A stretch of 64,000 nucleotides of DNA. Origin: Clostridia bacterium. Lineage in GTDB: Bacteria; Bacillota; Clostridia; UBA1212. A program made the position numbers and the translations under genes. Numbering within the stretch: the stretch's first letter is position 1; the number at the start of each line of letters is the position of its first letter. The notes under the pieces were generated by a model. That model did not search any database and was not told the origin of the DNA. It worked only from the letters and a program-made list of their open reading frames with translations. Positions 21,792-30,089 of the stretch are shown one piece after another. The stretch spans positions 2,752 to 66,751 of the forward strand of contig JAGDAX010000046.1 of NCBI GenBank assembly GCA_017848335.1, read 5' to 3'.

Positions 21792-23075
21792 TCAGCATGC
21801 GTCAACGCCTGACACCGTGATATTTTCCAGCCTGGTGACCTTCGGGATCTCCGCTGAGGCGTAGCGCCTTGTCTCGCGGCTCATGCGCATATGCGCGAGG
21901 TTGTCCTTCATGTTGCCTGAGATCGAGCCGCCGCTGACGGGAGTGACATTGCCCTCGCCGTCGTGGAAGTAGCCGAGACGGATCTCGCCGAAAATATCGC
22001 CGGTGAGGCCGTCCACCTGAAAATCGGAAAATTCGACTATTTCAAGGAACTTTCCGCTGCGCAGACCCTCTGCGGGCGTGCTGCCGCCGCTGACGCTCCA
22101 GTTGGAAACGATGAATGTGTCGTCAAGGCCAAGGTACTGGGAGAACATTCTGCCGCCGACGTATTGCTGCGGCACGCCGGAGTCGATAAGCACCGCGTCC
22201 CTGATTGGCGCGCCTTCCGGGTCGCAGGAGAAATTGGAGGGCGAATTCGGAAGCTCCCGCAATGCCTTGAGGGTGACCTTGTCGCCGTCCGTGTTCACGG
22301 TCACGGGCTTGCCGAGCTCGAAGGAGCTCATCCGGCGAAGCACCATGGAGACCTCCAGATTAGCCAGGAAGTAGCTGTAAATGCTGAGAGCTGCGTCGGT
22401 GGAAAATACGACGGGGTAGGAGCCTATGGCGGGCGTTGGCTTCGCGATCAGCCTGTCGCGGCCGAAGCGCATCAGCTCCTCGATATCGAGACGGAGCTGC
22501 TCCCGGTCGCAGCCGCCCAGATGGTAGAGCCTGTAAAGCTCGATTTCGTGATCGTCCTTGCGGGCGTTCACCACCAGGTCGATCATGGAGGAGAGGTAAT
22601 TCTCGGTCACGTCCACGCCCTCTGAATTGACGAGGCGCCTCTTCACGGCGGATACAAACAGCTCGTAGCTGTTGAGATACTCGGTCGCGGTCTCGTGAAT
22701 ACTGTCCATAGCCTTAATGAAGCGGTCGGATTCCTCCCTGAGATCGAATTCGCGGGCCTTTACCGGTTCGAAGGGCTTCGGCACGTTGAGCCTGTAGGGC
22801 TTGTTCTTGACGAGGCCGGCCTGGTAGACCAGATCGTCCACAGTCCGCCTGATATTGGCGTCGGTCTCCGTGGGCGGGATCTCGGCGGAGGCCATGCCCA
22901 TAAAGCCGTCCTCCGACAGCTTGTAAACGCAAAGCCTGACGTGCTCGACGTTCTTGGCGCGGTTCTGGTCAAGCCTGTGGCCGATGTAATAGAATTCCCA
23001 GTTTTTGACCTCTGTGCTGAATACTTCCCACGCGTCCGCCCCGGAAGCCTTCAAAATATCGATATATCTGTCCAT
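21792..23075 (-). CDS. pmbA: TldD/PmbA-family metalloprotease, PmbA (TldE)-like subunit
   Basis: Paralogous to the upstream TldD. Its ATG overlaps the tldD stop codon (TAATG at 23077-23073). The product begins MDRYIDILKASGADAWEV. Confidence 0.8.
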   Translation of the reverse strand: MDRYIDILKASGADAWEVFSTEVKNWEFYYIGHRLDQNRAKNVEHVRLCVYKLSEDGFMGMASAEIPPTETDANIRRTVDDLVYQAGLVKNKPYRLNVPKPFEPVKAREFDLREESDRFIKAMDSIHETATEYLNSYELFVSAVKRRLVNSEGVDVTENYLSSMIDLVVNARKDDHEIELYRLYHLGGCDREQLRLDIEELMRFGRDRLIAKPTPAIGSYPVVFSTDAALSIYSYFLANLEVSMVLRRMSSFELGKPVTVNTDGDKVTLKALRELPNSPSNFSCDPEGAPIRDAVLIDSGVPQQYVGGRMFSQYLGLDDTFIVSNWSVSGGSTPAEGLRSGKFLEIVEFSDFQVDGLTGDIFGEIRLGYFHDGEGNVTPVSGGSISGNMKDNLAHMRMSRETRRYASAEIPKVTRLENITVSGVDAC

Positions 23076-24508
23076 TATCCGAGCCTCGCTTTCGTTTTGA
23101 GATAGGGGCCGCCGTCGGAGACCTTGACCCATTCCTTGTGGCCTTTGCCGCAGCCGCCGCTTCCTTCAACCTCGCTGAAGGTGCCTGCCATGGTGATATT
23201 GCCGAGAAGATCCGGAACGTAGCCGGTCATGATCACCGGGGAGACCACCTTGCCGGTGAGCCTGCCGTCCTTTATTTCATGCCCCATCTGGATGATGCAC
23301 TGGATGCCCCAGTGCTTCGGGTCCTCCATGCCGCTCTCAACGCCTTCAAGCAGGTAGCCGTATTTGACGGAGGCGATCATGTCCTCGAGAGAATCGGTGC
23401 CTGTGTCAAAAACGGTGTTGGTCATGCGCGTGTAGACCTTGTGCTCGAAATTCTCGCGCTTCCCGTTGCCGGTGGGCACGGTGCCGAGCCGCAGGGCCGC
23501 AAGCGCGTCGCAAATTCCCGCTTTCAATATTCCCCGGTCGATCTCAACAACGTCGCCGGCGAGAGTACCTTCGTCGTCAAAAGCGTAACTGGTGACGTTC
23601 TCCGCGCAAAGAGCGCCCTCGTGCATCGTGACGAGGTCGGAGCCCACGCGCTTTCCTATGTAGTCCGCCCCGAGGGCGCGGCCTTTTACGAACATGTCCA
23701 TCTCAACGCCGTGGCCGAAGGCTTCGTGCGCGATAAGACCGGCAATTCCGGGCGTCGCAATAATGTCGTACTCGCCGGGAACGATGCGCTCCGAGTCGAG
23801 CATCAGCTCCGCGTTTTTGGCTGCCGGCTCCAGCTTGTCCGCAAGCCCCGGGAATATCTCAGGGCCGCCAAGCGCAGAAACGGATTTGTAGCCGACCTTG
23901 TTCTGCCCGTCTCTGCCGACGACCAGCGCCACCGAGCCTTCGCTGTAAACGTAGCTCTGCCTGAGGCACCGGTTTTTGGTGAGGAAAAGCTTGCAGATGT
24001 GTGTGGACTGCGCCCGTGTGATGCAGTCGAGAACGTTCTCCGACAGCGCCAGCCCCTTCTCGGATATTTCCGAGAGAAGCGCGATAAGCCCCGGAAGGTC
24101 GGCCTCCTCAGGCAGCACGCCGGTCTCTTTTTCCACAAAGAGCTCCAGCGGCTCATCGGGAAGGGGCCCCGTCTCGTAGATCCGGCAGCTGTTCGCCTTG
24201 AGAACCTCCAGCTGCGCGTTAAGAGTCTCCGATATCTCCTTCGCGGCCGCCTCCGGATTCTGCGGGTCAAACCTGTCAAGGGCATACTCGCTGTAAAGGC
24301 CGTCCCTGTATACCCGGACGACAGTGCCTCGCTCCGTGGTCATGGTCTTGTTTCCCACCGATTTTGAGTGCCGGGAAATGCCTACTGTGAGGCCCTTCGA
24401 GTCCGTGGACAGAACGCTCACATAGCTGAATTCCTGCCCGAGAAGCTCCACCAGCTTCTTGAGGCCGGGCATCAGGCTGTTCAGATATTCTGAAAAAGGT
24501 GCTTTCAT
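23075..24508 (-). CDS. tldD: Metalloprotease TldD
   Basis: HEAFGHGVEMD zinc motif (HExxxH) and a C-terminal GGCGKG motif typical of TldD. Confidence 0.88.
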   Translation of the reverse strand: MKAPFSEYLNSLMPGLKKLVELLGQEFSYVSVLSTDSKGLTVGISRHSKSVGNKTMTTERGTVVRVYRDGLYSEYALDRFDPQNPEAAAKEISETLNAQLEVLKANSCRIYETGPLPDEPLELFVEKETGVLPEEADLPGLIALLSEISEKGLALSENVLDCITRAQSTHICKLFLTKNRCLRQSYVYSEGSVALVVGRDGQNKVGYKSVSALGGPEIFPGLADKLEPAAKNAELMLDSERIVPGEYDIIATPGIAGLIAHEAFGHGVEMDMFVKGRALGADYIGKRVGSDLVTMHEGALCAENVTSYAFDDEGTLAGDVVEIDRGILKAGICDALAALRLGTVPTGNGKRENFEHKVYTRMTNTVFDTGTDSLEDMIASVKYGYLLEGVESGMEDPKHWGIQCIIQMGHEIKDGRLTGKVVSPVIMTGYVPDLLGNITMAGTFSEVEGSGGCGKGHKEWVKVSDGGPYLKTKARLG

Positions 24509-24596
24509 AAAATCTCCTTTTCGCGTTTTATTTGAGATCGCGGCCGCGGCGCCGATGTGCTGCCGGCGTTGAAGTCTCCGGCGTCGATCATCAGGG

Positions 24597-24700
24597 CGTT
24601 GATCTTGTCCGGCGGTGATTGTCCGGCGGTGCTTGTCCGGCGTTGATTGTTCCGGCGGTGCTTGTCCGGCCTTGTCCGGCGTTGATTGTTCCGGCGTTGA
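24597..24700. repeat. 13-14-nt tandem repeat TTGTCCGGCGGTGM, about 8 degenerate units
   Basis: Read directly upstream of tldD, at the GC-rich edge of the AT-rich island. Confidence 0.8.
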
Positions 24701-24913
24701 CCTCTGATGAATATATACTATTTTTTGGCCGCGGAATCAAGGCGGTCTTTGCGGTCTGTTTAGAGAAAATATCTCCAAATATGCGTCTGAAATAGTGCTC
24801 GCGGGCAATTTGCTTATGGATTTGATGCGCAAAAAGCTGATTATGCGTGTCTTTCGCTACTCGTCTTTGGCCGCCTTGGCAACGGCTCAAATAAAGCTTT
24901 GGAGAATGCCGCT

Positions 24914-24996
24914 TCAACGCATCCAACGCATCCAACGCAATGTTAACGCAGATCAAGCGTTGGGACAACGCATTCCAACGCGTTTAATGCGTTGGA
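24914..24996. repeat. Cluster of seven NCAACGCR octamers (5 direct, 2 inverted) including the hairpin TCCAACGC-gtttaat-GCGTTGGA
   Basis: Direct copies at 24914, 24923, 24932, 24943, 24965 and 24975. Inverted copies at 24957 and 24989. Confidence 0.8.
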
Positions 24997-25177
24997 TTCG
25001 AAGCTTTCTGTAAGCAAAGATTCTTTCCACGTGGATTTCCATTTTGATCCTCTTTTGACCCACTGGACAGAATGAAACACTGTAAAACCGTCCCCAAGAG
25101 TAGAAAGCAGATCGTACACAAGAATCTCTGCAAATGGAACATCGGATAGGTCTTCTTTGGATGGATATTTGAGCCAT
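24953..25177 (-). CDS. Hypothetical 74-aa basic Cys-containing protein, possibly translationally coupled to the helicase
   Basis: Its ATG overlaps the helicase stop codon (TAATG), and AAAGGAG lies 10 nt upstream inside the helicase 3' end. The ORF's 3' third is encoded by the CAACGC repeat cluster, which lowers confidence. An alternative 52-66-aa ORF in another frame (24984..25184) encodes one TM helix. Confidence 0.25.
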   Translation of the reverse strand: MAQISIQRRPIRCSICRDSCVRSAFYSWGRFYSVSFCPVGQKRIKMEIHVERIFAYRKLRIQRIKRVGMRCPNA

Positions 25178-28100
25178 TATTCAAGATCTCCTTTTATTGC
25201 TTCATAATCTATATCATAGATTCTGTACGCATGCCAACCTTTCCGCTTAAAATACTCCAAGGTTCCATTCGTTGTATCCTGTTGGCATATCAATGTATCT
25301 TTAGTCGGCCAGGACATCAAGATATCCTTACCTTCATCTGAATGCTTTATGCTGGTTTCCAAATACTCTGGGATTGGAATCTGGATAGCCGCAAGTTTTG
25401 AAAGGATTGAATGATCTCCCTCATCGAAGAAAGATTCCAGTTCTGTCCAATGATGATACATGTTCGTTGGGTAAGAATGCTCTTTGTCTATTAATTTGTT
25501 CATCCTTGCCTGTTTTTGTGAGGGCTCTTCAATACCTGAAAGAACATCATAGCCGAGAAAATAGTCTTCGATATAGTTCCATCGTTCCTCGTCCCCTTTC
25601 AGATTATTGAAGAACCTCAATAATACCGCCACATCTCTATCGTGTTTCTGTTTTGCTTTCGTCACATAATTATTTGAATAAACGGTATTGCCAAGAACAA
25701 TACTTTTGACCTTATTGGGATCGTTTAGACGAATAAAGATCTCAGGCTCTTCCCCTCCAGCCACCTCATATGTAATGTAATCAAAGATCGAAAGGAGTTT
25801 CAGAGCTGTATTTGAATTATCATCAGATGTCAAACTGATGAATCCTTCGTATGATGCCGCATCATGAATCCTTGCAATATTCTGCATGATATTTGAGCGG
25901 ATGATTGGTCTCCTCATAAACTCTTTGAAGTTGCCATTTGAGAGCGAATGGACTGTTTTTCCCGATGTGTCACCCGTACGATGTTTAACACAACGTGAAT
26001 CAGGATCTACTAGATCAAAAAGCGAGTTCGCAATAATCCTAGCCTTTGTAATGCCATATTTCTCACGAATAACTTTTGTAAATTCTTCTGTCGTAAAGAA
26101 TTGCCGCTTAAACTCAGTGTAAAGCGTATTGGCTATGAATTCAAAATCTTGAAGTATTAATTCTCTTAGTTCAGATAGAAGCATTTCACCCCTGGCTTCA
26201 ATTGTAATCTTTTGACGCGGAGCAATTTTATGCCTAACAGAAGGCATAATGTCCACTTTGTCCGGTGATTGGGAGTTTGCATTAAAAAACCAGTACTTGA
26301 ACTGTGGGAATGAAATGTTGGGATGGAACTCCTCCCAAATGCTTTTGAGATCTAATGTGTATACGTCTCCATTGTCACTCAACAAGCTTCCGTCGGGTTG
26401 TTTTTCCCGATACCTTCCTTTGGATACGAATCTCATGTATTTACCGTACTCAGATGATAGTACCTCGCTTTCACTCTCTTTATTAATACAAATAAATGCT
26501 TTTGTGAAAACACTCTGTGGGCGAGAGATTAAAACTTTAAAATTGTATTTGTCGTAAAAGTCTTTCTCAAGCATTAAGAGGCAAGTCTTGAGCTTGCTAA
26601 TGCAGTCACCCTCATTTTTTCCGTTGAAAATATAAGTAAATGCTTCTGGAGAGATAAGAAAGCTGCGTTCACCTTTTTTGCTTTTGTATGTATCATAAAT
26701 TCCTTCGAGGACTTTTTTTATCTGATACTGTCTTATTTGAGACATGCCAAATAAAACCTTCATAAAAGTCATATCGTTAAAGAAAAAATCAGTAACGGCA
26801 TTTCCTTCCATTGAAGATTTACGAGCAGCTCTTCCTATTTCCTGAACATAGTCCGATAGATTTCCGCTGACAGCATAGTGGTATACGTTCTTGACATCAT
26901 TTACATCTACACCCATACCAAACGCTTTTGTGGCAAGCATTATCGGAGTTGTACCTTTTCTAAAGCTTTCAAACGTTTGCCGCTTCACCTCGTTGAAGGC
27001 CTTGTTGCTCAAATCATCAATATTTCTTCCTGTATATGTTCCTATACGTTTATCGGTTGTGATACCTGCAAATCCCTGCATACCCCTAGACGCATCCCGA
27101 GCCAGGGAAGCATACGGGAAATACACTATCGTTTTTTCATCATTTTTCAGCCAATGCTGTATTCTTTTATCTAGTGCCTGGCATTTGGCTGATTCATATT
27201 CTGGTTTTGGAAGCTTCTGCCCAGTGCCTGGGTGGGTTATCTCAAATTTGACATCATCCCTTCTAACATAACCCAGATATTTAATTGGGTTCTCCATATA
27301 AAGACTTATGATGGTATCACTGACAGAGTCGTCCACGCCTCCGTTGATTGCTGTCGCTGTAAATGCACAGATCGGGAAATGATATACTTTCTGCTTCATC
27401 CCTTTGCTTGTTTGAACACGATTTCTCAATCTGTTAAGATAGCCACCAAGGTACCAATAGTCAGGTCTGAAGCCTACGCCCCACGTCGTAACTATATGAG
27501 CCTCGTCAACGATGATAAGACCAATCTCTCTCTCTCCAATAATAGTTTCGATCGAATACGACAAGAGTGTTTCCGGACTTAGATAAAGAAGATCTACATC
27601 GCCATGCTTAATTCTTTCTAGTACCGCCTCTTTTTCCACTTGAGTAATCAAATCAGAATTAAACGCTTCAACGCGCATATATCCTGATTTGTTAAGCTTT
27701 TCTTTTTGATCCTGCATCAGAGCTTTAACCGGCTCAATGATTATTGTAAGCTTATTGTATTTTTGTGCCAAATACACGGCGGGAATTTGAAACATCAAAG
27801 ATTTTCCTGCCCCAGTAGATGCAGTAATGAATATATCCCGGTAACTATCACCACGAGCATAGTTATACGCATTTTCCGCTTGTCGAATAATCTCATGGAT
27901 GATCTCAGACTGGGATATATCAACGACCTCTTTATTAATATCAGGGCTCTTGTAAAACTTTATTTTCCTGAACTCCTCGAATCCATTAATTCTGATAATA
28001 TCCTTAGCAATCGCTTTTAACTCAGAGTCTAGGCTTTTGTATTCAGGTTTTCTTTCCAGGTATTCAATTAATCTAATTCCATGAAACAAGCAATATGCCT

Positions 28101-28761
28101 GTAACGTTTTTTGTACTCTTTTGGACAGTTCGCCGTTTGTGGATTTTATGCTGATAATGCTCGGTTTTATTCGAATAATGCTCGTAAGATCGCGAAGATA
28201 GGTGTCGATATCTTCATTCAAAAATACATCGTATTGACTTTGAACAGTAGTTTTCTCGATTTCGCAATTCTGTGGATAGTAATCTTTTACAATCACGCCG
28301 TCATCCCGATAATACTCATAATTGTAGAATCCCCCATAGAGAGTACCATCCGCATCAACCAAAGAGTTATATATTGCGAGATAACTCTGGCAAGCAGAAC
28401 TTTGTACAGCGTTTCTATCGCCATTAATGGTCTCGATTATCTCCCTAGATATCTCAGAACTAATGTCGAACTCGATTGGATAATACTCTGGATAAAGATT
28501 ATTCCTAAAGATGACAACCTCAAGCTCATCTTCCGTGATTGCATCATCAATTCTATTTTTAATCAGTGAGTATTCCTCATAGGTCAACCAAGATACATCG
28601 TCCTCGTCTAGAGAAAGAAGTGCAATATCAAGTTTCTTGCGAATATCTTTATCATAGAGCAACACATTCTTTTTCTGGGAAACAGGTATGTTTAATAGAG
28701 GTCGCTGTTCTAGCGCACATAAAAAAGCCTCATCAAATCCCTTATATACTTCTATCCTCAT
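25177..28761 (-). CDS. RecQ-family SF2 DNA helicase, atypical 1194-aa architecture
   Basis: Motif I ASTGAGKSLMFQIPA (aa about 315), motif Ia TIIIEPVKALMQDQ, motif II IIVDEAHIVTTWGVGFRPDY (aa about 417-435), and motif III FTATA. Motif V is ATKAFGMGVDVNDVKNVYHY and motif VI YVQEIGRAARK (aa about 638-648). GGAGGTG RBS. About 300 aa at the N-terminus and about 545 aa at the C-terminus are unassigned. Confidence 0.9.
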   Translation of the reverse strand: MRIEVYKGFDEAFLCALEQRPLLNIPVSQKKNVLLYDKDIRKKLDIALLSLDEDDVSWLTYEEYSLIKNRIDDAITEDELEVVIFRNNLYPEYYPIEFDISSEISREIIETINGDRNAVQSSACQSYLAIYNSLVDADGTLYGGFYNYEYYRDDGVIVKDYYPQNCEIEKTTVQSQYDVFLNEDIDTYLRDLTSIIRIKPSIISIKSTNGELSKRVQKTLQAYCLFHGIRLIEYLERKPEYKSLDSELKAIAKDIIRINGFEEFRKIKFYKSPDINKEVVDISQSEIIHEIIRQAENAYNYARGDSYRDIFITASTGAGKSLMFQIPAVYLAQKYNKLTIIIEPVKALMQDQKEKLNKSGYMRVEAFNSDLITQVEKEAVLERIKHGDVDLLYLSPETLLSYSIETIIGEREIGLIIVDEAHIVTTWGVGFRPDYWYLGGYLNRLRNRVQTSKGMKQKVYHFPICAFTATAINGGVDDSVSDTIISLYMENPIKYLGYVRRDDVKFEITHPGTGQKLPKPEYESAKCQALDKRIQHWLKNDEKTIVYFPYASLARDASRGMQGFAGITTDKRIGTYTGRNIDDLSNKAFNEVKRQTFESFRKGTTPIMLATKAFGMGVDVNDVKNVYHYAVSGNLSDYVQEIGRAARKSSMEGNAVTDFFFNDMTFMKVLFGMSQIRQYQIKKVLEGIYDTYKSKKGERSFLISPEAFTYIFNGKNEGDCISKLKTCLLMLEKDFYDKYNFKVLISRPQSVFTKAFICINKESESEVLSSEYGKYMRFVSKGRYREKQPDGSLLSDNGDVYTLDLKSIWEEFHPNISFPQFKYWFFNANSQSPDKVDIMPSVRHKIAPRQKITIEARGEMLLSELRELILQDFEFIANTLYTEFKRQFFTTEEFTKVIREKYGITKARIIANSLFDLVDPDSRCVKHRTGDTSGKTVHSLSNGNFKEFMRRPIIRSNIMQNIARIHDAASYEGFISLTSDDNSNTALKLLSIFDYITYEVAGGEEPEIFIRLNDPNKVKSIVLGNTVYSNNYVTKAKQKHDRDVAVLLRFFNNLKGDEERWNYIEDYFLGYDVLSGIEEPSQKQARMNKLIDKEHSYPTNMYHHWTELESFFDEGDHSILSKLAAIQIPIPEYLETSIKHSDEGKDILMSWPTKDTLICQQDTTNGTLEYFKRKGWHAYRIYDIDYEAIKGDLE

Positions 28762-29085
28762 ATTGCACCTCCATATTTCTCTTGCTAAAAAGAATAATAA
28801 CGTGTTTGCACATTTATAGCTATCATATTTATATGAGTTTTTTTCTGATTATCTTCAGTTCACCGTTGATATAGCATATCGTTTTAAATTATACGGTAAT
28901 TATCTTTCAAATAACTCCCTGGAGGGTGAAGGAACGTCCATAAGCGCCCTGAGAAAATCTGAGAGGAACGTTCTGTTTTTCTGGACATTAAGCGGTTTTC
29001 GAGCTTTCGATCTCGCGAAATCATGAGGGATTTTTTCTAAAAGAAGTATCCTGAAACAGGCCCAAAATGCTGCTTATTTGCTGCA

Positions 29086-29238
29086 TTACATGGACAATTC
29101 GTGTATTCCGCAAGACAACAAGTACTTATAAATGGCATCGTAGTATGCGTGGTCCCTGGTCGGATCCTCTTCTGAATCCACACCCTCCGGAACGAAAATA
29201 ACCATGCCTTGGCGAGCCCTGGTCAGCAGAACACGATA
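29086..29238 (-). pseudogene. C-terminal remnant of a DUF2075-type (UvrD-C-like) helicase gene
   Basis: The minus-strand frame reads YRVLLTRARQGMVIFVPEGVDSEEDPTRDHAYYDAIYKYLLSCGIHELSM*. An in-frame stop lies just upstream at 29257-29259, and there is no N-terminal part. The pattern matches my memory of DUF2075 C-termini. Confidence 0.5.
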
Positions 29239-29270
29239 AGAATTAACTAAGTATACTCATTATCTCCAAA

Positions 29271-29359
29271 GAGTCCCACCATGGTCCGCAGTGCGTTGCC
29301 GCCTTATGCGTGGTGGGCTCTGTCGGTTATAGGATATACCCCGCTTGACCTTTTGTCAA
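29271..29359 (-). promoter_or_regulatory. Orphan sigma-70-type promoter followed by a 10-bp hairpin
   Basis: On the minus strand: TTGACA (29359-29354), a 17-nt spacer, then TATCCT (29336-29331). A hairpin follows, GAGCCCACCA...TGGTGGGACTC (29320-29271), then TTTGG. Confidence 0.35.
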
Positions 29360-29627
29360 TATGAATCCCCCGAACTGTTGCGTGATTTGCAACGGTTCCG
29401 GGCCCAATCCGGGCCGGTATTTTCGAAGCTTTAACACAGAGCGTTAAGACTTAACAAAGAGCTCGAAGCTTTAACACAGAACTCTATGCTATAACACGGT
29501 TTAACAGGGAAAGCCCCGTAACAATGACGGAACCCCTTGTTCAAATGAAAAAACAAGACAGAAAAGGCAAGCAGACAAGACAAAAAGGCAAGAAAACAAG
29601 ACAGTAAGCAAAACGACAAAGCAAGAC

Positions 29628-29660
29628 AAAAAAACGAGACCATCCCAAAAGATGATCTCG
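29628..29660 (-). terminator. Rho-independent terminator of rplM-rpsI
   Basis: On the minus strand: CGAGATCATC, loop ttttgg, GATGGTCTCG, followed by TTTTTTT. Confidence 0.8.
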
Positions 29661-29699
29661 TGCCTGGTGATCTGATAATAGATGATCTGAGAATTTCGG

Positions 29700-30089
29700 T
29701 TATCTCTTCGAGAACTGGGGCGCTCTTCTTGCCTTCTTGAGACCGTACTTTTTGCGCTCCTTCATACGGGGATCCCTGGTAAGGAAGCCGGCCGATTTGA
29801 GGTCCGCCTTGTAAGCTTCGTCCGCCACTACGAGAGCTCTTGCCACGCCGTGTCTGATGGCGCCTGCCTGTCCGGTGAATCCGCCGCCCATCACCTTGAC
29901 CGTGACGTCGAATTTCTTGTCCGCGCCGGTAAGCTCTATAGGCTGACGGCAAATGTATCTCAAGGTCTCGAGACCGAAATATTCGTCAAGTGTTTTGCCA
30001 TTGACAGTGAAGCTGCCGCTGCCGGGTACAAGCACGACCTGGGCGATGGCCTTCTTCCTTCTGCCTGTTGCACTAAATCTATCTGCCAT
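29700..30089 (-). CDS. rpsI: 30S ribosomal protein S9
   Basis: 129 aa ending ...[17 protein letters not shown]. Confidence 0.98.

What the first reader, a model, noticed from the sequence alone, without database searches (positions are those of the whole stretch)
24700..29085. Abrupt AT-rich island between tldD and the rplM-rpsI operon with no visible mobility machinery
The flanks are GC-rich with GC3-rich codons. The helicase ORF and its flanking non-coding DNA are strongly AT-rich, roughly one third G+C by eye, and dominated by AAA, GAA, ATT and TAT codons. I see no integrase, transposase, tRNA or convincing flanking direct repeats. The only shared flank word I found is about 8-10 nt (GAGAAAAT). 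The way the island was acquired is therefore unclear.
Basis: seen in the sequence. Interest (0 to 1): 0.6.

Follow-up and report, generated by a model that had tools for sequence, protein, structure and literature searches.

The report
Truncated helicase cassette in defence hotspot
The AT-rich island is real and foreign: it is a cut-down copy of a two-gene helicase cassette common in low-GC gut Firmicutes, sitting in a gene-swapping hotspot between rpsI and tldD. This is an ordinary kind of genomic island, and related copies of the cassette travel on small integrative mobilizable elements, which are absent here.

Summary
Observation confirmed. The helicase ORF (25177-28761, minus strand) has GC 0.386 and GC3 0.38. 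The genome has GC 0.555 and GC3 0.705±0.098. No tRNA, integrase or meaningful flanking repeat is present.

The island is a composite.
- About 25022-28899 is an orphaned fragment of a conserved, translationally coupled two-gene cassette. Gene 1 is a 1194-aa RecQ-like SF2 helicase (PADLOC C3a193). Gene 2 is a ~575-aa NERD + SF1 helicase.
- Here gene 2 is frameshifted at codon 4 and cut after codon 53/54. It has lost the nuclease triad and the motor.
- An older DUF2075-type C-terminal remnant and conserved non-coding modules flank the fragment.

The whole rpsI-tldD interval (24543-29697) is a multi-allelic hotspot.
- A sister species has it empty (279 bp) or holding DUF6994.
- Another relative carries a 15.6-kb restriction/defence island there.
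- Conspecific strains in gut metagenomes lack the helicase and carry other cargo.

Elsewhere the cassette is AT-rich whatever the host's GC. It sits beside tyrosine integrases, MobV relaxases, serine recombinases and defence genes.

Most likely the cassette arrived by horizontal transfer into a recombination hotspot and was truncated recently.

Verdict: new member of a known kind, moderate-to-low interest.

The parts
24543..29697 (.). Variable interval of the rpsI-tldD hotspot. Everything between the end of rpsI and 34 bp upstream of the tldD start has no counterpart in the sister species.
   Evidence: Homology to L082/L083/L090 stops at about 29696-29698 and resumes at 24542. L090 has only 279 bp here.
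25177..28761 (-). Intact 1194-aa RecQ-like SF2 helicase (C3a193 family). Walker A is TGAGKS at 316-321 and the DEAH box is at 419-422. About 280 aa at the N-terminus and about 500 aa at the C-terminus are unassigned.
   Evidence: All invariant columns of 31 homologues are kept. The core fold is RecQ-like.
25021..25177 (-). Dead stump of the partner gene (NERD + SF1 helicase). The ATG overlaps the helicase stop, there is a 2-nt deletion at codon 4, and the gene is cut after codon 53/54, before the invariant D55/E69/K71 triad and the Walker A motif.
   Evidence: The stump is 74% identical to residues 5-54 of the L012 partner and 94% identical to the same residues of the L067 partner. The DNA homology of 12 loci ends at 25021/25022. 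Frameshift. Invariant residues.
28762..28899 (-). AT-rich leader in front of the helicase. Only the last 21 nt (the RBS region) match the closest relative; the rest is of unknown origin.
   Evidence: Homology to L067 starts at 28782. No strong promoter is predicted.
28897..29086 (-). Conserved non-coding element with a terminator-like hairpin followed by TTATTTGAAAGATAAT. It forms the right-hand boundary of the cargo.
   Evidence: 71-73% identical to G002 (340 bp after its rpsI) and to L080/L089 (upstream of a DUF6414 cassette). Helicase-less strains diverge at 28900-28903.
29087..29257 (-). C-terminal 56-codon remnant of a DUF2075/SLFN-g3-type helicase gene. It is older than the helicase insertion.
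   Evidence: Translation. It is not the partner's C-terminus. It is present at about 96% identity in strains that lack the helicase. A 49%-identical homologue lies on contig C156.
29252..29484 (.). Strain-variable stretch with TTAACAC-type repeats (29423-29500) and an orphan promoter-like site. It is deleted in other strains.
   Evidence: Repeats. The 228-233-bp deletion is seen in L065/L066 and in run X6. Promoter-like site.
29634..29661 (-). Intrinsic terminator of the rplM-rpsI operon.
   Evidence: 12-bp stem followed by T7.
24845..25020 (.). Left boundary module. It holds a CAACGC word array and the palindrome CCAACGCGTTTAATGCGTTGG (24907-25000), with a promoter-like TTGTCC-17-TAACAT pointing towards tldD.
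   Evidence: Five CCAACGC/GCGTTGG words lie within 73 bp. The same motif family follows the conserved element in G002 after about 60 nt. One X3 contig shares 24815-25022 and then diverges at 25022, whereas allele A diverges at 24844.
24573..24700 (.). GC-rich tandem repeat upstream of tldD. Its length differs between strains by a 39-nt indel.

Best explanation
The island is horizontally acquired DNA lodged in a cargo-swapping hotspot between the rplM-rpsI operon and tldD of a 55%-GC gut Clostridia species.

Its core (about 25022-28899) is a fragment of a widespread, translationally coupled two-gene cassette. The first gene is a 1194-aa RecQ-like SF2 helicase. The second is a ~575-aa NERD (PD-(D/E)xK nuclease) + SF1 helicase. 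The cassette circulates among low-GC gut Firmicutes as cargo of small integrative mobilizable elements and defence islands.

In this species only the helicase and the first 53 codons of the partner remain, and the partner stump is also frameshifted. No mobility genes came with the fragment, or none survived.

Inferred steps:
- The cassette entered by recombination. Either flanking homology of hotspot modules and core genes was used, or one end was joined illegitimately inside the partner gene.
- The truncation is recent.
- The complete cassette works as a helicase-nuclease system against foreign DNA (two motors plus one nuclease). This copy has therefore lost its effector nuclease. The orphan helicase is either decaying or kept for a residual function, at roughly even odds.
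For: Foreign and AT-rich.

The same site in relatives:
- Empty (279 bp) in L090.
- Holds DUF6994 in L082/L083/L085.
- Holds a 15.6-kb methylase/REase/HNH/Vsr/DUF6414/Fic island in L089/L080.
- Holds Abi-like, HTH-plus-two-genes or AAA-ATPase cargo in the genus genomes.

Polymorphic within the species: runs X3, X5 and X6 have the flanks but zero depth over the helicase. Their contigs diverge at 24844 or 25022 and at 28900-28903.

Two-gene cassette: the partner starts 5-21 nt after the helicase in 15 of the 25 loci tabulated. It is also present in L067-L070.

Partner identity: NERD + SF1 helicase.

Stump, junction and frameshift.

The cassette is AT-rich (GC 0.30-0.42) in hosts of 0.31-0.65 GC.

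Mobility and defence neighbours elsewhere:
- Tyrosine integrase + HTH + AAA_25 + Mob_Pre + cassette in L030.
- Mob_Pre in L014, L015 and L034.
- Two large serine recombinases in L023.
- Integrase + Xis + RCR Rep in L006-L011.
- Type IV REase, AbiU, AIPR, GmrSD and Gabija-like genes nearby.

Recency:
- The stump has dN 0.018 against L067 while dS is saturated.
- The cassette shows 0-1 differences in 3.9 kb among six assemblies, while tldD differs by 0.45% and pmbA by 2.3%.
Against: - The actual joining mechanism is not shown.
- No donor closer than 80% DNA identity was found.
- One other allele abuts the same left flank at the same nucleotide (25022). That is not what a random illegitimate joint predicts, and it hints at a preferred or site-specific breakpoint.
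- A defence function of the cassette has never been tested. The family is only catalogued (C3a193, 3 members, PMC6546367).
- Whether the orphan helicase is alive is ambiguous. One assembly (L063) carries a nonsense codon at position 174, whereas all four SNPs in run X4 are synonymous. Solo helicases also exist in Eubacterium elements.
Confidence: 0.7

Rival explanations
1. The island is the decayed remnant of an integrative mobilizable element. The element integrated site-specifically downstream of rpsI using its own integrase. Later deletions removed the integrase, the relaxase, the att sites and most of the partner gene.
For: Relatives of the cassette ride on exactly such elements: L030 (integrase + HTH + AAA_25 + Mob_Pre) and L006-L011 (integrase + Xis + Rep). 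The interval contains other gene remnants, including the DUF2075 C-terminus and an orphan promoter.
Against: tblastn with 561 neighbour ORFs found no remnant of an integrase, relaxase or Rep gene in the interval. There are no att-like repeats. None of the other alleles of this hotspot that could be read (L083, L089, G001, G003, G006, G007) shows an integrase at the site either.
Confidence: 0.15
2. Cargo in this hotspot is exchanged at fixed non-coding boundary modules by a site-specific or hairpin-stimulated mechanism acting in trans, in an integron-like way. The modules are the terminator-like element with its 20-nt GAGTTrTTTGAArGATAAT repeat and the CAACGC array with its palindrome.
For: - The right boundary recurs at 28900-28903 in different alleles. 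Its 42-nt core occurs in several other contexts in runs X3 and X6, and upstream of an unrelated cassette in L080.
- Two different cargos abut the left module at the same nucleotide, 25022.
- In G002 the two modules lie about 60 nt apart.
- The palindrome arms contain ATCCAAC/GTTGGAT, which fit the RYYYAAC/GTTRRRY core of attC sites. This match was made by eye against the consensus as I know it.
Against: - No integron integrase scores above the cut-off in any of the 8 genomes of the genus.
- The cargo here is a truncated gene, not a precise cassette.
- The sister-species alleles (L083, L090) lack both modules.
- There are too few sequences to test structure conservation.
- Shared boundaries are also expected simply where conserved flanks end.
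Confidence: 0.08
3. The island is not an acquired island at all. It is either a native gene with unusual composition or an assembly or binning chimera.
For: The genome is a 79%-complete MAG in 169 contigs.
Against: Six independent assemblies and single unitigs span both junctions. The island is absent from all relatives at this site, and an empty site exists. Homologues at 65-89% identity occur in unrelated Firmicutes, Synergistota and CPR MAGs.
Confidence: 0.02

Closest known systems
C3a193 ('poss. alt. Cas3'), cluster 193 of Shah et al. 2018 (PMC6546367); PADLOC model PDLC01089
   Same: The HMM matches over its full length (residues 53-1072, E 5e-164). Both are a large RecQ-like SF2 helicase with uncharacterised N- and C-terminal modules.
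   Different: The catalogue entry rests on 3 members next to type III CRISPR-cas loci and has never been tested. The copy here is not beside cas genes in the rpsI-tldD interval. It belongs to a ~1194-aa subfamily with about 120 extra C-terminal residues, and this subfamily is normally coupled to a NERD-SF1 partner.
RecQ family DNA helicases (TIGR00614, TIGR01389; E. coli/C. sakazakii RecQ, RECQL5)
   Same: The helicase core has the same motifs and fold. Sequence search against PDB gives E 1e-27 to 4tmu. Foldseek gives E 1.8e-18 with TM 0.58 on the target.
   Different: Scores are far below the curated cut-offs: 149.6 against 219.8 bits, and 159.6 against 640 bits. The protein is twice as long. 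It is carried on mobile DNA and is not a housekeeping gene.
NERD/nuclease-helicase defence proteins: Nhi, AbiO, RTasNERD-Hel (cluster 485 with UG34 reverse transcriptases, PMC9226505), C3a187 'NERD+UvrD'
   Same: The intact partner in relatives matches RTasNERD-Hel (E 7.5e-49), C3a187, AbiO and Nhi. It has an invariant D55...E69xK71 triad plus Walker A.
   Different: In this cassette the partner is coupled to a RecQ-like helicase, not to a reverse transcriptase, and it does not stand alone. In the window only codons 1-53 remain and they are frameshifted.
Chromosomal integration and defence hotspots between conserved core genes, as described for E. coli, Pseudomonas and Vibrio (from my own knowledge; no paper was read here)
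   Same: The core flanks are fixed (rpsI and tldD/pepM55). Each species and strain has different low-GC, defence-rich cargo. Empty alleles exist, and often no integrase is present.
   Different: The host is an uncultured gut Clostridia lineage. The hotspot contains shared non-coding modules whose role is unknown.
Integrative mobilizable elements with a tyrosine integrase and a MobV (Mob_Pre) relaxase
   Same: This is the usual vehicle of the cassette in other hosts, for example L030, an 11-kb low-GC island in a 60-67% GC genome.
   Different: None of the vehicle's genes or ends is present in the window.

Membership tests
Horizontally acquired genomic island | Composition and codon usage deviate from the host genome | tested here: met
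   GC 0.386 against 0.555; GC3 0.38 against 0.705 +/- 0.098
Horizontally acquired genomic island | Absent from the same site in close relatives; an empty site exists | tested here: met
   L090 has a 279-bp rpsI-tldD spacer. L083, L089 and the genus genomes carry other cargo
Horizontally acquired genomic island | Presence/absence polymorphism within the species | tested here: met
   Runs X3, X5 and X6 have the flanks but no helicase. Runs X1, X2, X4 and X7 have the helicase
Horizontally acquired genomic island | Own mobility genes, an adjacent tRNA, or flanking att/direct repeats | tested here: not met
   No tRNA. No integrase, transposase or relaxase, and no remnant of one. The only repeat is an 11-mer at chance level
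C3a193 helicase family (PADLOC PDLC01089) | Full-length match to the family HMM | tested here: met
   E 5.1e-164, residues 53-1072 on model positions 50-982 of 983
C3a193 helicase family (PADLOC PDLC01089) | Neighbourhood of type III CRISPR-cas genes (the basis of the original catalogue entry) | not tested
   The flanking genes annotated here (pepM55, pmbA, tldD, rpsI, rplM, FTHF cyclo-ligase, ileS) are not cas genes. No dedicated cas or CRISPR search was run on the window
RecQ family (TIGR00614 / TIGR01389) | Score above the curated family cut-off | tested here: not met
   149.6 against 219.8 bits; 159.6 against 640.2 bits
RecQ family (TIGR00614 / TIGR01389) | RecQ-like helicase core fold and motifs | tested here: met
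   PDB phmmer E 9e-28 to 4tmu. Foldseek E 1.8e-18. Walker A and DEAH are invariant
RecQ-like helicase + NERD-SF1 helicase two-gene cassette | Intact helicase gene | tested here: met
   The 1194-codon ORF keeps all invariant columns of 31 homologues. One population variant has a stop at codon 174
RecQ-like helicase + NERD-SF1 helicase two-gene cassette | Intact partner gene directly downstream | tested here: not met
   Only codons 1-53 remain, with a 2-nt deletion at codon 4. D55/E69/K71 and the Walker A motif are lost. No second copy lies in the 79%-complete genome
Integron gene cassette array | Integron integrase (TIGR02249) in the genome | tested here: not met
   No match above the cut-off in 8 genomes of the genus
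Integron gene cassette array | attC sites at cassette boundaries | tested here: inconclusive
   The palindrome arms fit the 7-nt core consensus by eye. No attC model was available, and Rfam found nothing
Integrative mobilizable element | Integrase plus relaxase/oriT within the island | tested here: not met
   Absent in the window. Present beside the cassette in L030, L034, L014, L023 and L006

The most novel reading that the evidence does not exclude
The rpsI-tldD hotspot of this Clostridia lineage may exchange cargo at fixed non-coding boundary modules. One module is a terminator-like element ending in a 20-nt GAGTTrTTTGAArGATAAT repeat. The other is a CAACGC word array with a palindrome. The exchange would use a site-specific or hairpin-directed mechanism whose recombinase is encoded elsewhere, making this an integron-like cassette platform outside the known integron integrase family. 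The helicase fragment would then be a cassette captured by that platform, not a random scar.
Probability: 0.08. Interest if true: 0.7.

Novelty: new member of a known kind. Interest (0 to 1): 0.35.

Why it matters
The answer in outline is that the site is a recombination hotspot with at least seven different contents across the species and its relatives. The cargo here is a broken piece of a cassette that normally travels on integrative mobilizable elements.

Two by-products may interest defence-system researchers.
- The catalogued but untested C3a193 helicase has a large ~1194-aa subfamily. The search found more than 1900 clusters at 90% identity, mostly from gut metagenomes. This subfamily is normally coupled, by overlapping or nearly abutting genes, to a NERD-SF1 nuclease-helicase. 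That makes it a concrete two-gene candidate system that can be cloned and tested.
- The hotspot carries conserved non-coding boundary modules of unknown role.

For this genome itself the finding is ordinary: a recently acquired, partly dead defence-type remnant.

Tried and rejected
- GTDB relatives as a source of empty sites: too distant. Their TldD is only 41-48% identical and tldD is not at this site. The question was solved through members of the TldD 90% cluster instead.
- Two exact-word scans of JGI metagenome contigs, one with a flank word and one with the allele-A loose end: no hits.
The content of alleles A and (c) therefore stays unknown.
It was solved with a neighbour-gene look-up.
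- Rfam on 24400-29800: nothing.
- RNAalifold on three copies of the conserved element: a terminator-like hairpin, but too few sequences to judge.
- RNA-seq runs holding the helicase: none listed, so expression is untested.
- Foldseek of the AlphaFold model (pLDDT 75.9) returned only RecQ cores. The N- and C-terminal modules remain unassigned.
- The 11-nt direct repeat TTCGAAGCTTT (24997 and 29422) was considered as a target-site duplication and rejected. It is at chance level for the region, and its right copy lies inside a stretch that other strains delete.
- Integron hypothesis: no IntI.
- The last TldD-cluster look-up (L092) turned out to be an L080-type relative, not the conspecific alternative allele.

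Full report
**1.

In 400-nt windows, GC drops from 0.57-0.61 over pmbA/tldD to 0.34-0.43 between about 24800 and 29100. It recovers over rpsI/rplM and beyond.

The window is C23:2752-66751 of a 2.41-Mb, 169-contig MAG with GC 0.555. The 3585-nt helicase ORF (25177-28761, minus strand) has GC 0.386, and only 0.7% of same-sized windows in the genome are as low.

GC3 is 0.38. Flanking genes have GC3 0.64-0.86, and 1167 long ORFs of the genome average 0.705 ± 0.098. AAA, ATT, TAT, TTA and AGA codons are enriched 2.4-6-fold.

There is no tRNA in the window. The interval holds no integrase or transposase ORF. The best flanking repeat is an exact 11-mer at chance level.

The island is not an assembly artefact. 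Five other assemblies and single unitigs of two bovine-gut runs span both junctions.

**2. What the ORF is**

The 1194-aa protein has a DEAD/Helicase_C core at residues about 284-700.
- The core is RecQ-like by sequence and by predicted fold. PDB phmmer gives E 9e-28 to 4tmu. The AlphaFold model has pLDDT 75.9, and Foldseek gives E 1.8e-18.
- It scores far below the curated RecQ cut-offs.
- Over its whole length it matches PADLOC model PDLC01089, 'C3a193, poss. alt. Cas3' (E 5e-164). This is a three-member cluster from a survey of type III CRISPR accessory genes and has never been tested (PMC6546367).
- Homologues are very numerous: 1917 hits among the candidates scored. The best 120 are all about 1194 aa long and 64-89% identical.
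- At greater distance there are 628 clusters (50% identity level) at E ≤ 1e-30. Most of these are 1050-1100 aa and lack the last ~120 residues.
- The protein is conserved end to end, with Walker A and DEAH invariant.

**3. The helicase is normally half of a two-gene cassette, and the second half is broken here**

Loci from species genomes are mostly Lachnospiraceae, Oscillospiraceae, Ruminococcus and Eubacterium. There are also Fretibacterium, Veillonellales and a Peribacteria MAG.

In 15 of the 25 loci tabulated, a ~575-aa gene starts 5-21 nt after the helicase stop. The same holds in the closest relatives, L067-L070, where the two genes overlap by one base or lie one base apart.

That partner is a NERD nuclease domain fused to an SF1 (UvrD_C_2/SLFN-g3-type) helicase.
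- It matches PADLOC RTasNERD-Hel (E 7.5e-49), C3a187 'NERD+UvrD', AbiO and Nhi.
- D55, E69, K71 and the Walker A motif are invariant.

In the window, the stretch directly after the helicase stop (25167→25021, minus strand) encodes residues 5-53 of this partner. It is 74% identical to L012 and 94% identical to L067.
- The start codon is thrown out of frame by a 2-nt deletion at codon 4.
- The DNA homology of twelve loci stops at exactly 25021/25022.
- The stump therefore ends two residues before the catalytic aspartate.
- The 74-codon ORF at 24953-25177 is this stump read in the wrong frame.
- No second partner copy is found in the 79%-complete genome.

**4. The rest of the interval**

On the minus strand downstream of rpsI, the order is:
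- the operon terminator (29661-29634);
- a strain-variable stretch with TTAACAC repeats, of which 29252-29484 is deleted in other strains;
- a 56-codon C-terminal remnant of a DUF2075/SLFN-g3-type helicase (29257-29087). It is not the partner's C-terminus, and strains without the RecQ-like helicase also carry it;
- a ~190-nt conserved non-coding element (29086-28897).

The core of that element is 71-73% identical to sequence 340 bp after rpsI in congener G002. It is similarly identical to sequence just upstream of an unrelated DUF6414 cassette in relative L080/L089. It ends in a terminator-like hairpin plus TTATTTGAAAGATAAT.

Next come 135 nt of AT-rich leader, of which only the last 21 nt match L067. 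The helicase and the partner stump follow.

To the left of the junction lies a 176-nt module (24845-25020) with a CAACGC word array and a palindrome. In G002 the same motif family follows the conserved element after only about 60 nt and precedes the promoter of the next gene. The helicase fragment therefore sits between two non-coding modules that are neighbours in a congener.

**5. Empty and occupied sites**

The GTDB relatives were too distant to give an exact junction, but they show the pattern. Directly after rpsI they carry:
- an Abi-like gene of GC 0.35 (G007);
- an HTH gene plus two further genes (G001);
- an AAA-ATPase gene (G003, G006);
- nothing (G004).

Members of the TldD 90% cluster gave the decisive loci.
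- In a sister species (core genes about 85% identical), rpsI and tldD are separated by 279 bp in L090. In L082/L083/L085 they are separated by a 1.1-kb DUF6994 insert.
- Homology with the window ends at about 29697 and resumes at 24542. The window's 5155 bp therefore stand where L090 has 243 bp.
- In another relative (L089/L080) the same interval is 15.6 kb of low-GC DNA. It holds a C5 methylase, an AlwI/FokI-type REase, HNH, Vsr, DUF6414, RhuM/Fic and a 1154-aa protein.

Within the species itself:
- Logan contigs of runs X3, X5 and X6 contain the flanks but have zero depth over the helicase.
- One allele (A) diverges from the window at 24844 and at 28903.
- Another contig shares 24815-25022 and then diverges at the very nucleotide where the partner stump ends.
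- Runs X1, X2, X4 and X7 carry the helicase.

**6. Where the cassette comes from and how it travels**

The helicase gene has GC 0.30-0.42 in every host. This includes hosts whose flanks are 0.55-0.65 GC (L015 Gemmiger, L023, L025, L030), where it forms the same kind of abrupt island.

Its neighbours elsewhere include mobility genes:
- a tyrosine integrase, an HTH repressor, an AAA_25 ATPase and a Mob_Pre relaxase (L030);
- Mob_Pre (L014, L015, L034);
- two large serine recombinases (L023);
- integrase + excisionase-like HTH + RCR Rep (L006-L011).

They also include defence genes: GmrSD, type IV REases, AbiU, AIPR, Gabija-like and UvrD-type helicases.

None of these genes has left a detectable remnant in the window.

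**7. Age and state**

Against L067 the helicase has dN/dS 0.02 with saturated dS. The partner stump has dN 0.018. The partner was therefore under constraint until recently.

Among six assemblies the cassette fragment shows 0-1 differences in 3.9 kb, while tldD differs by about 0.45% and pmbA by 2.3%. This is consistent with one recent acquisition.

Evidence on the orphan helicase is mixed.
- One assembly (L063) has CAA→TAA at codon 174.
- The four SNPs seen in run X4 are all synonymous.
- Solo helicases exist in Eubacterium elements.

**8. Mechanism**

Shown:
- foreign origin;
- the hotspot;
- the truncated two-gene cassette;
- mobility vehicles in relatives.

Inferred:
- Entry was by recombination without a dedicated integrase. 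At least one end was joined illegitimately inside the partner gene. A GAAAGA microhomology is present at both ends but is weak evidence.
- The complete cassette acts as a dual-motor helicase-nuclease against invading DNA, by analogy with Nhi, AbiO, Gabija, Hachiman and AddAB/RecBCD-type logic. This is from my own knowledge and was not tested here.
- This copy has lost its nuclease.

Rivals considered:
- a decayed integrative mobilizable element;
- a fixed-boundary, integron-like exchange, for which no IntI was found;
- an artefact, which is excluded.

**9. Verdict**

This is a well-supported but ordinary genomic island: a new member of a known kind, namely hotspot cargo. Its by-products are a testable two-gene candidate defence system and some unexplained boundary modules.

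Noticed in passing
window 24747-24755: In helicase-less strains (runs X3, X5, X6), an insertion element with terminal inverted repeats GGTTCTACTCCCGTTTCCGTAAT sits here with a 9-bp target duplication. The same repeat lies at or near contig ends C3, C53 and C73 and inside C9 and C95 of this genome, so it is a multi-copy IS.
   Followed up: partly
window 28897-29086: A ~190-nt conserved non-coding element (terminator-like hairpin plus a 20-nt GAGTTrTTTGAArGATAAT unit, which is duplicated in G002 and L089). It recurs after rpsI in G002, upstream of a DUF6414 cassette in L080, and in several other contexts in metagenome runs. Its function is unknown.
   Followed up: partly
window 24907-25000: Five CCAACGC/GCGTTGG words and a 7-bp-stem palindrome lie within 73 bp. 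The same motif family precedes the promoter of an AlbA_2-like gene in G002. It may be an operator array or a recombination site.
   Followed up: partly
window 24573-24700: A GC-rich tandem repeat (CCGGCGGTGxTTGT units) upstream of tldD shows a 39-nt length polymorphism between strains.
   Followed up: no
window 21792-23074 (pmbA): pmbA differs by 2.3% between conspecific assemblies, while neighbouring genes differ by 0.1-0.5%. This looks like an imported recombination tract.
   Followed up: no
window 21792-24508 (tldD-pmbA): The seven GTDB genus genomes lack tldD-pmbA at this site, and their best TldD is only 41-44% identical. The best match in the order is 48%. The pair may itself be an older acquisition, although its GC matches the host.
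   Followed up: no
L063:1510-2856 (= window 28761-27446): One metagenome assembly carries a nonsense mutation (Q174*, window 28242) in an otherwise identical helicase. The last ~30 nt of that contig switch to a different helicase homologue.
   Followed up: partly
L033:10001-18506: In Eubacterium sp. AM49-13BH the helicase gene is interrupted after residue 951 by a ~5-kb insert that carries a tyrosine integrase. The rest of the gene continues downstream.
   Followed up: no
genome contigs C152:41-50 kb, C107:39-50 kb, C55:22-26 kb, C16:1-3 kb, C91:1-5 kb, C22:1-5 kb: There are further abrupt low-GC (0.31-0.45) islands in this 55%-GC genome. Examples are four tandem ~600-aa genes on C152, and a tyrosine recombinase plus 724-aa and 2206-aa proteins on C107. 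Import of low-GC DNA is a general feature of the genome.
   Followed up: no
whole genome G000: tblastn with the helicase found no other RecQ-like gene at E <= 1e-3. Either a canonical recQ is absent or it lies in the missing 21% of the genome.
   Followed up: no
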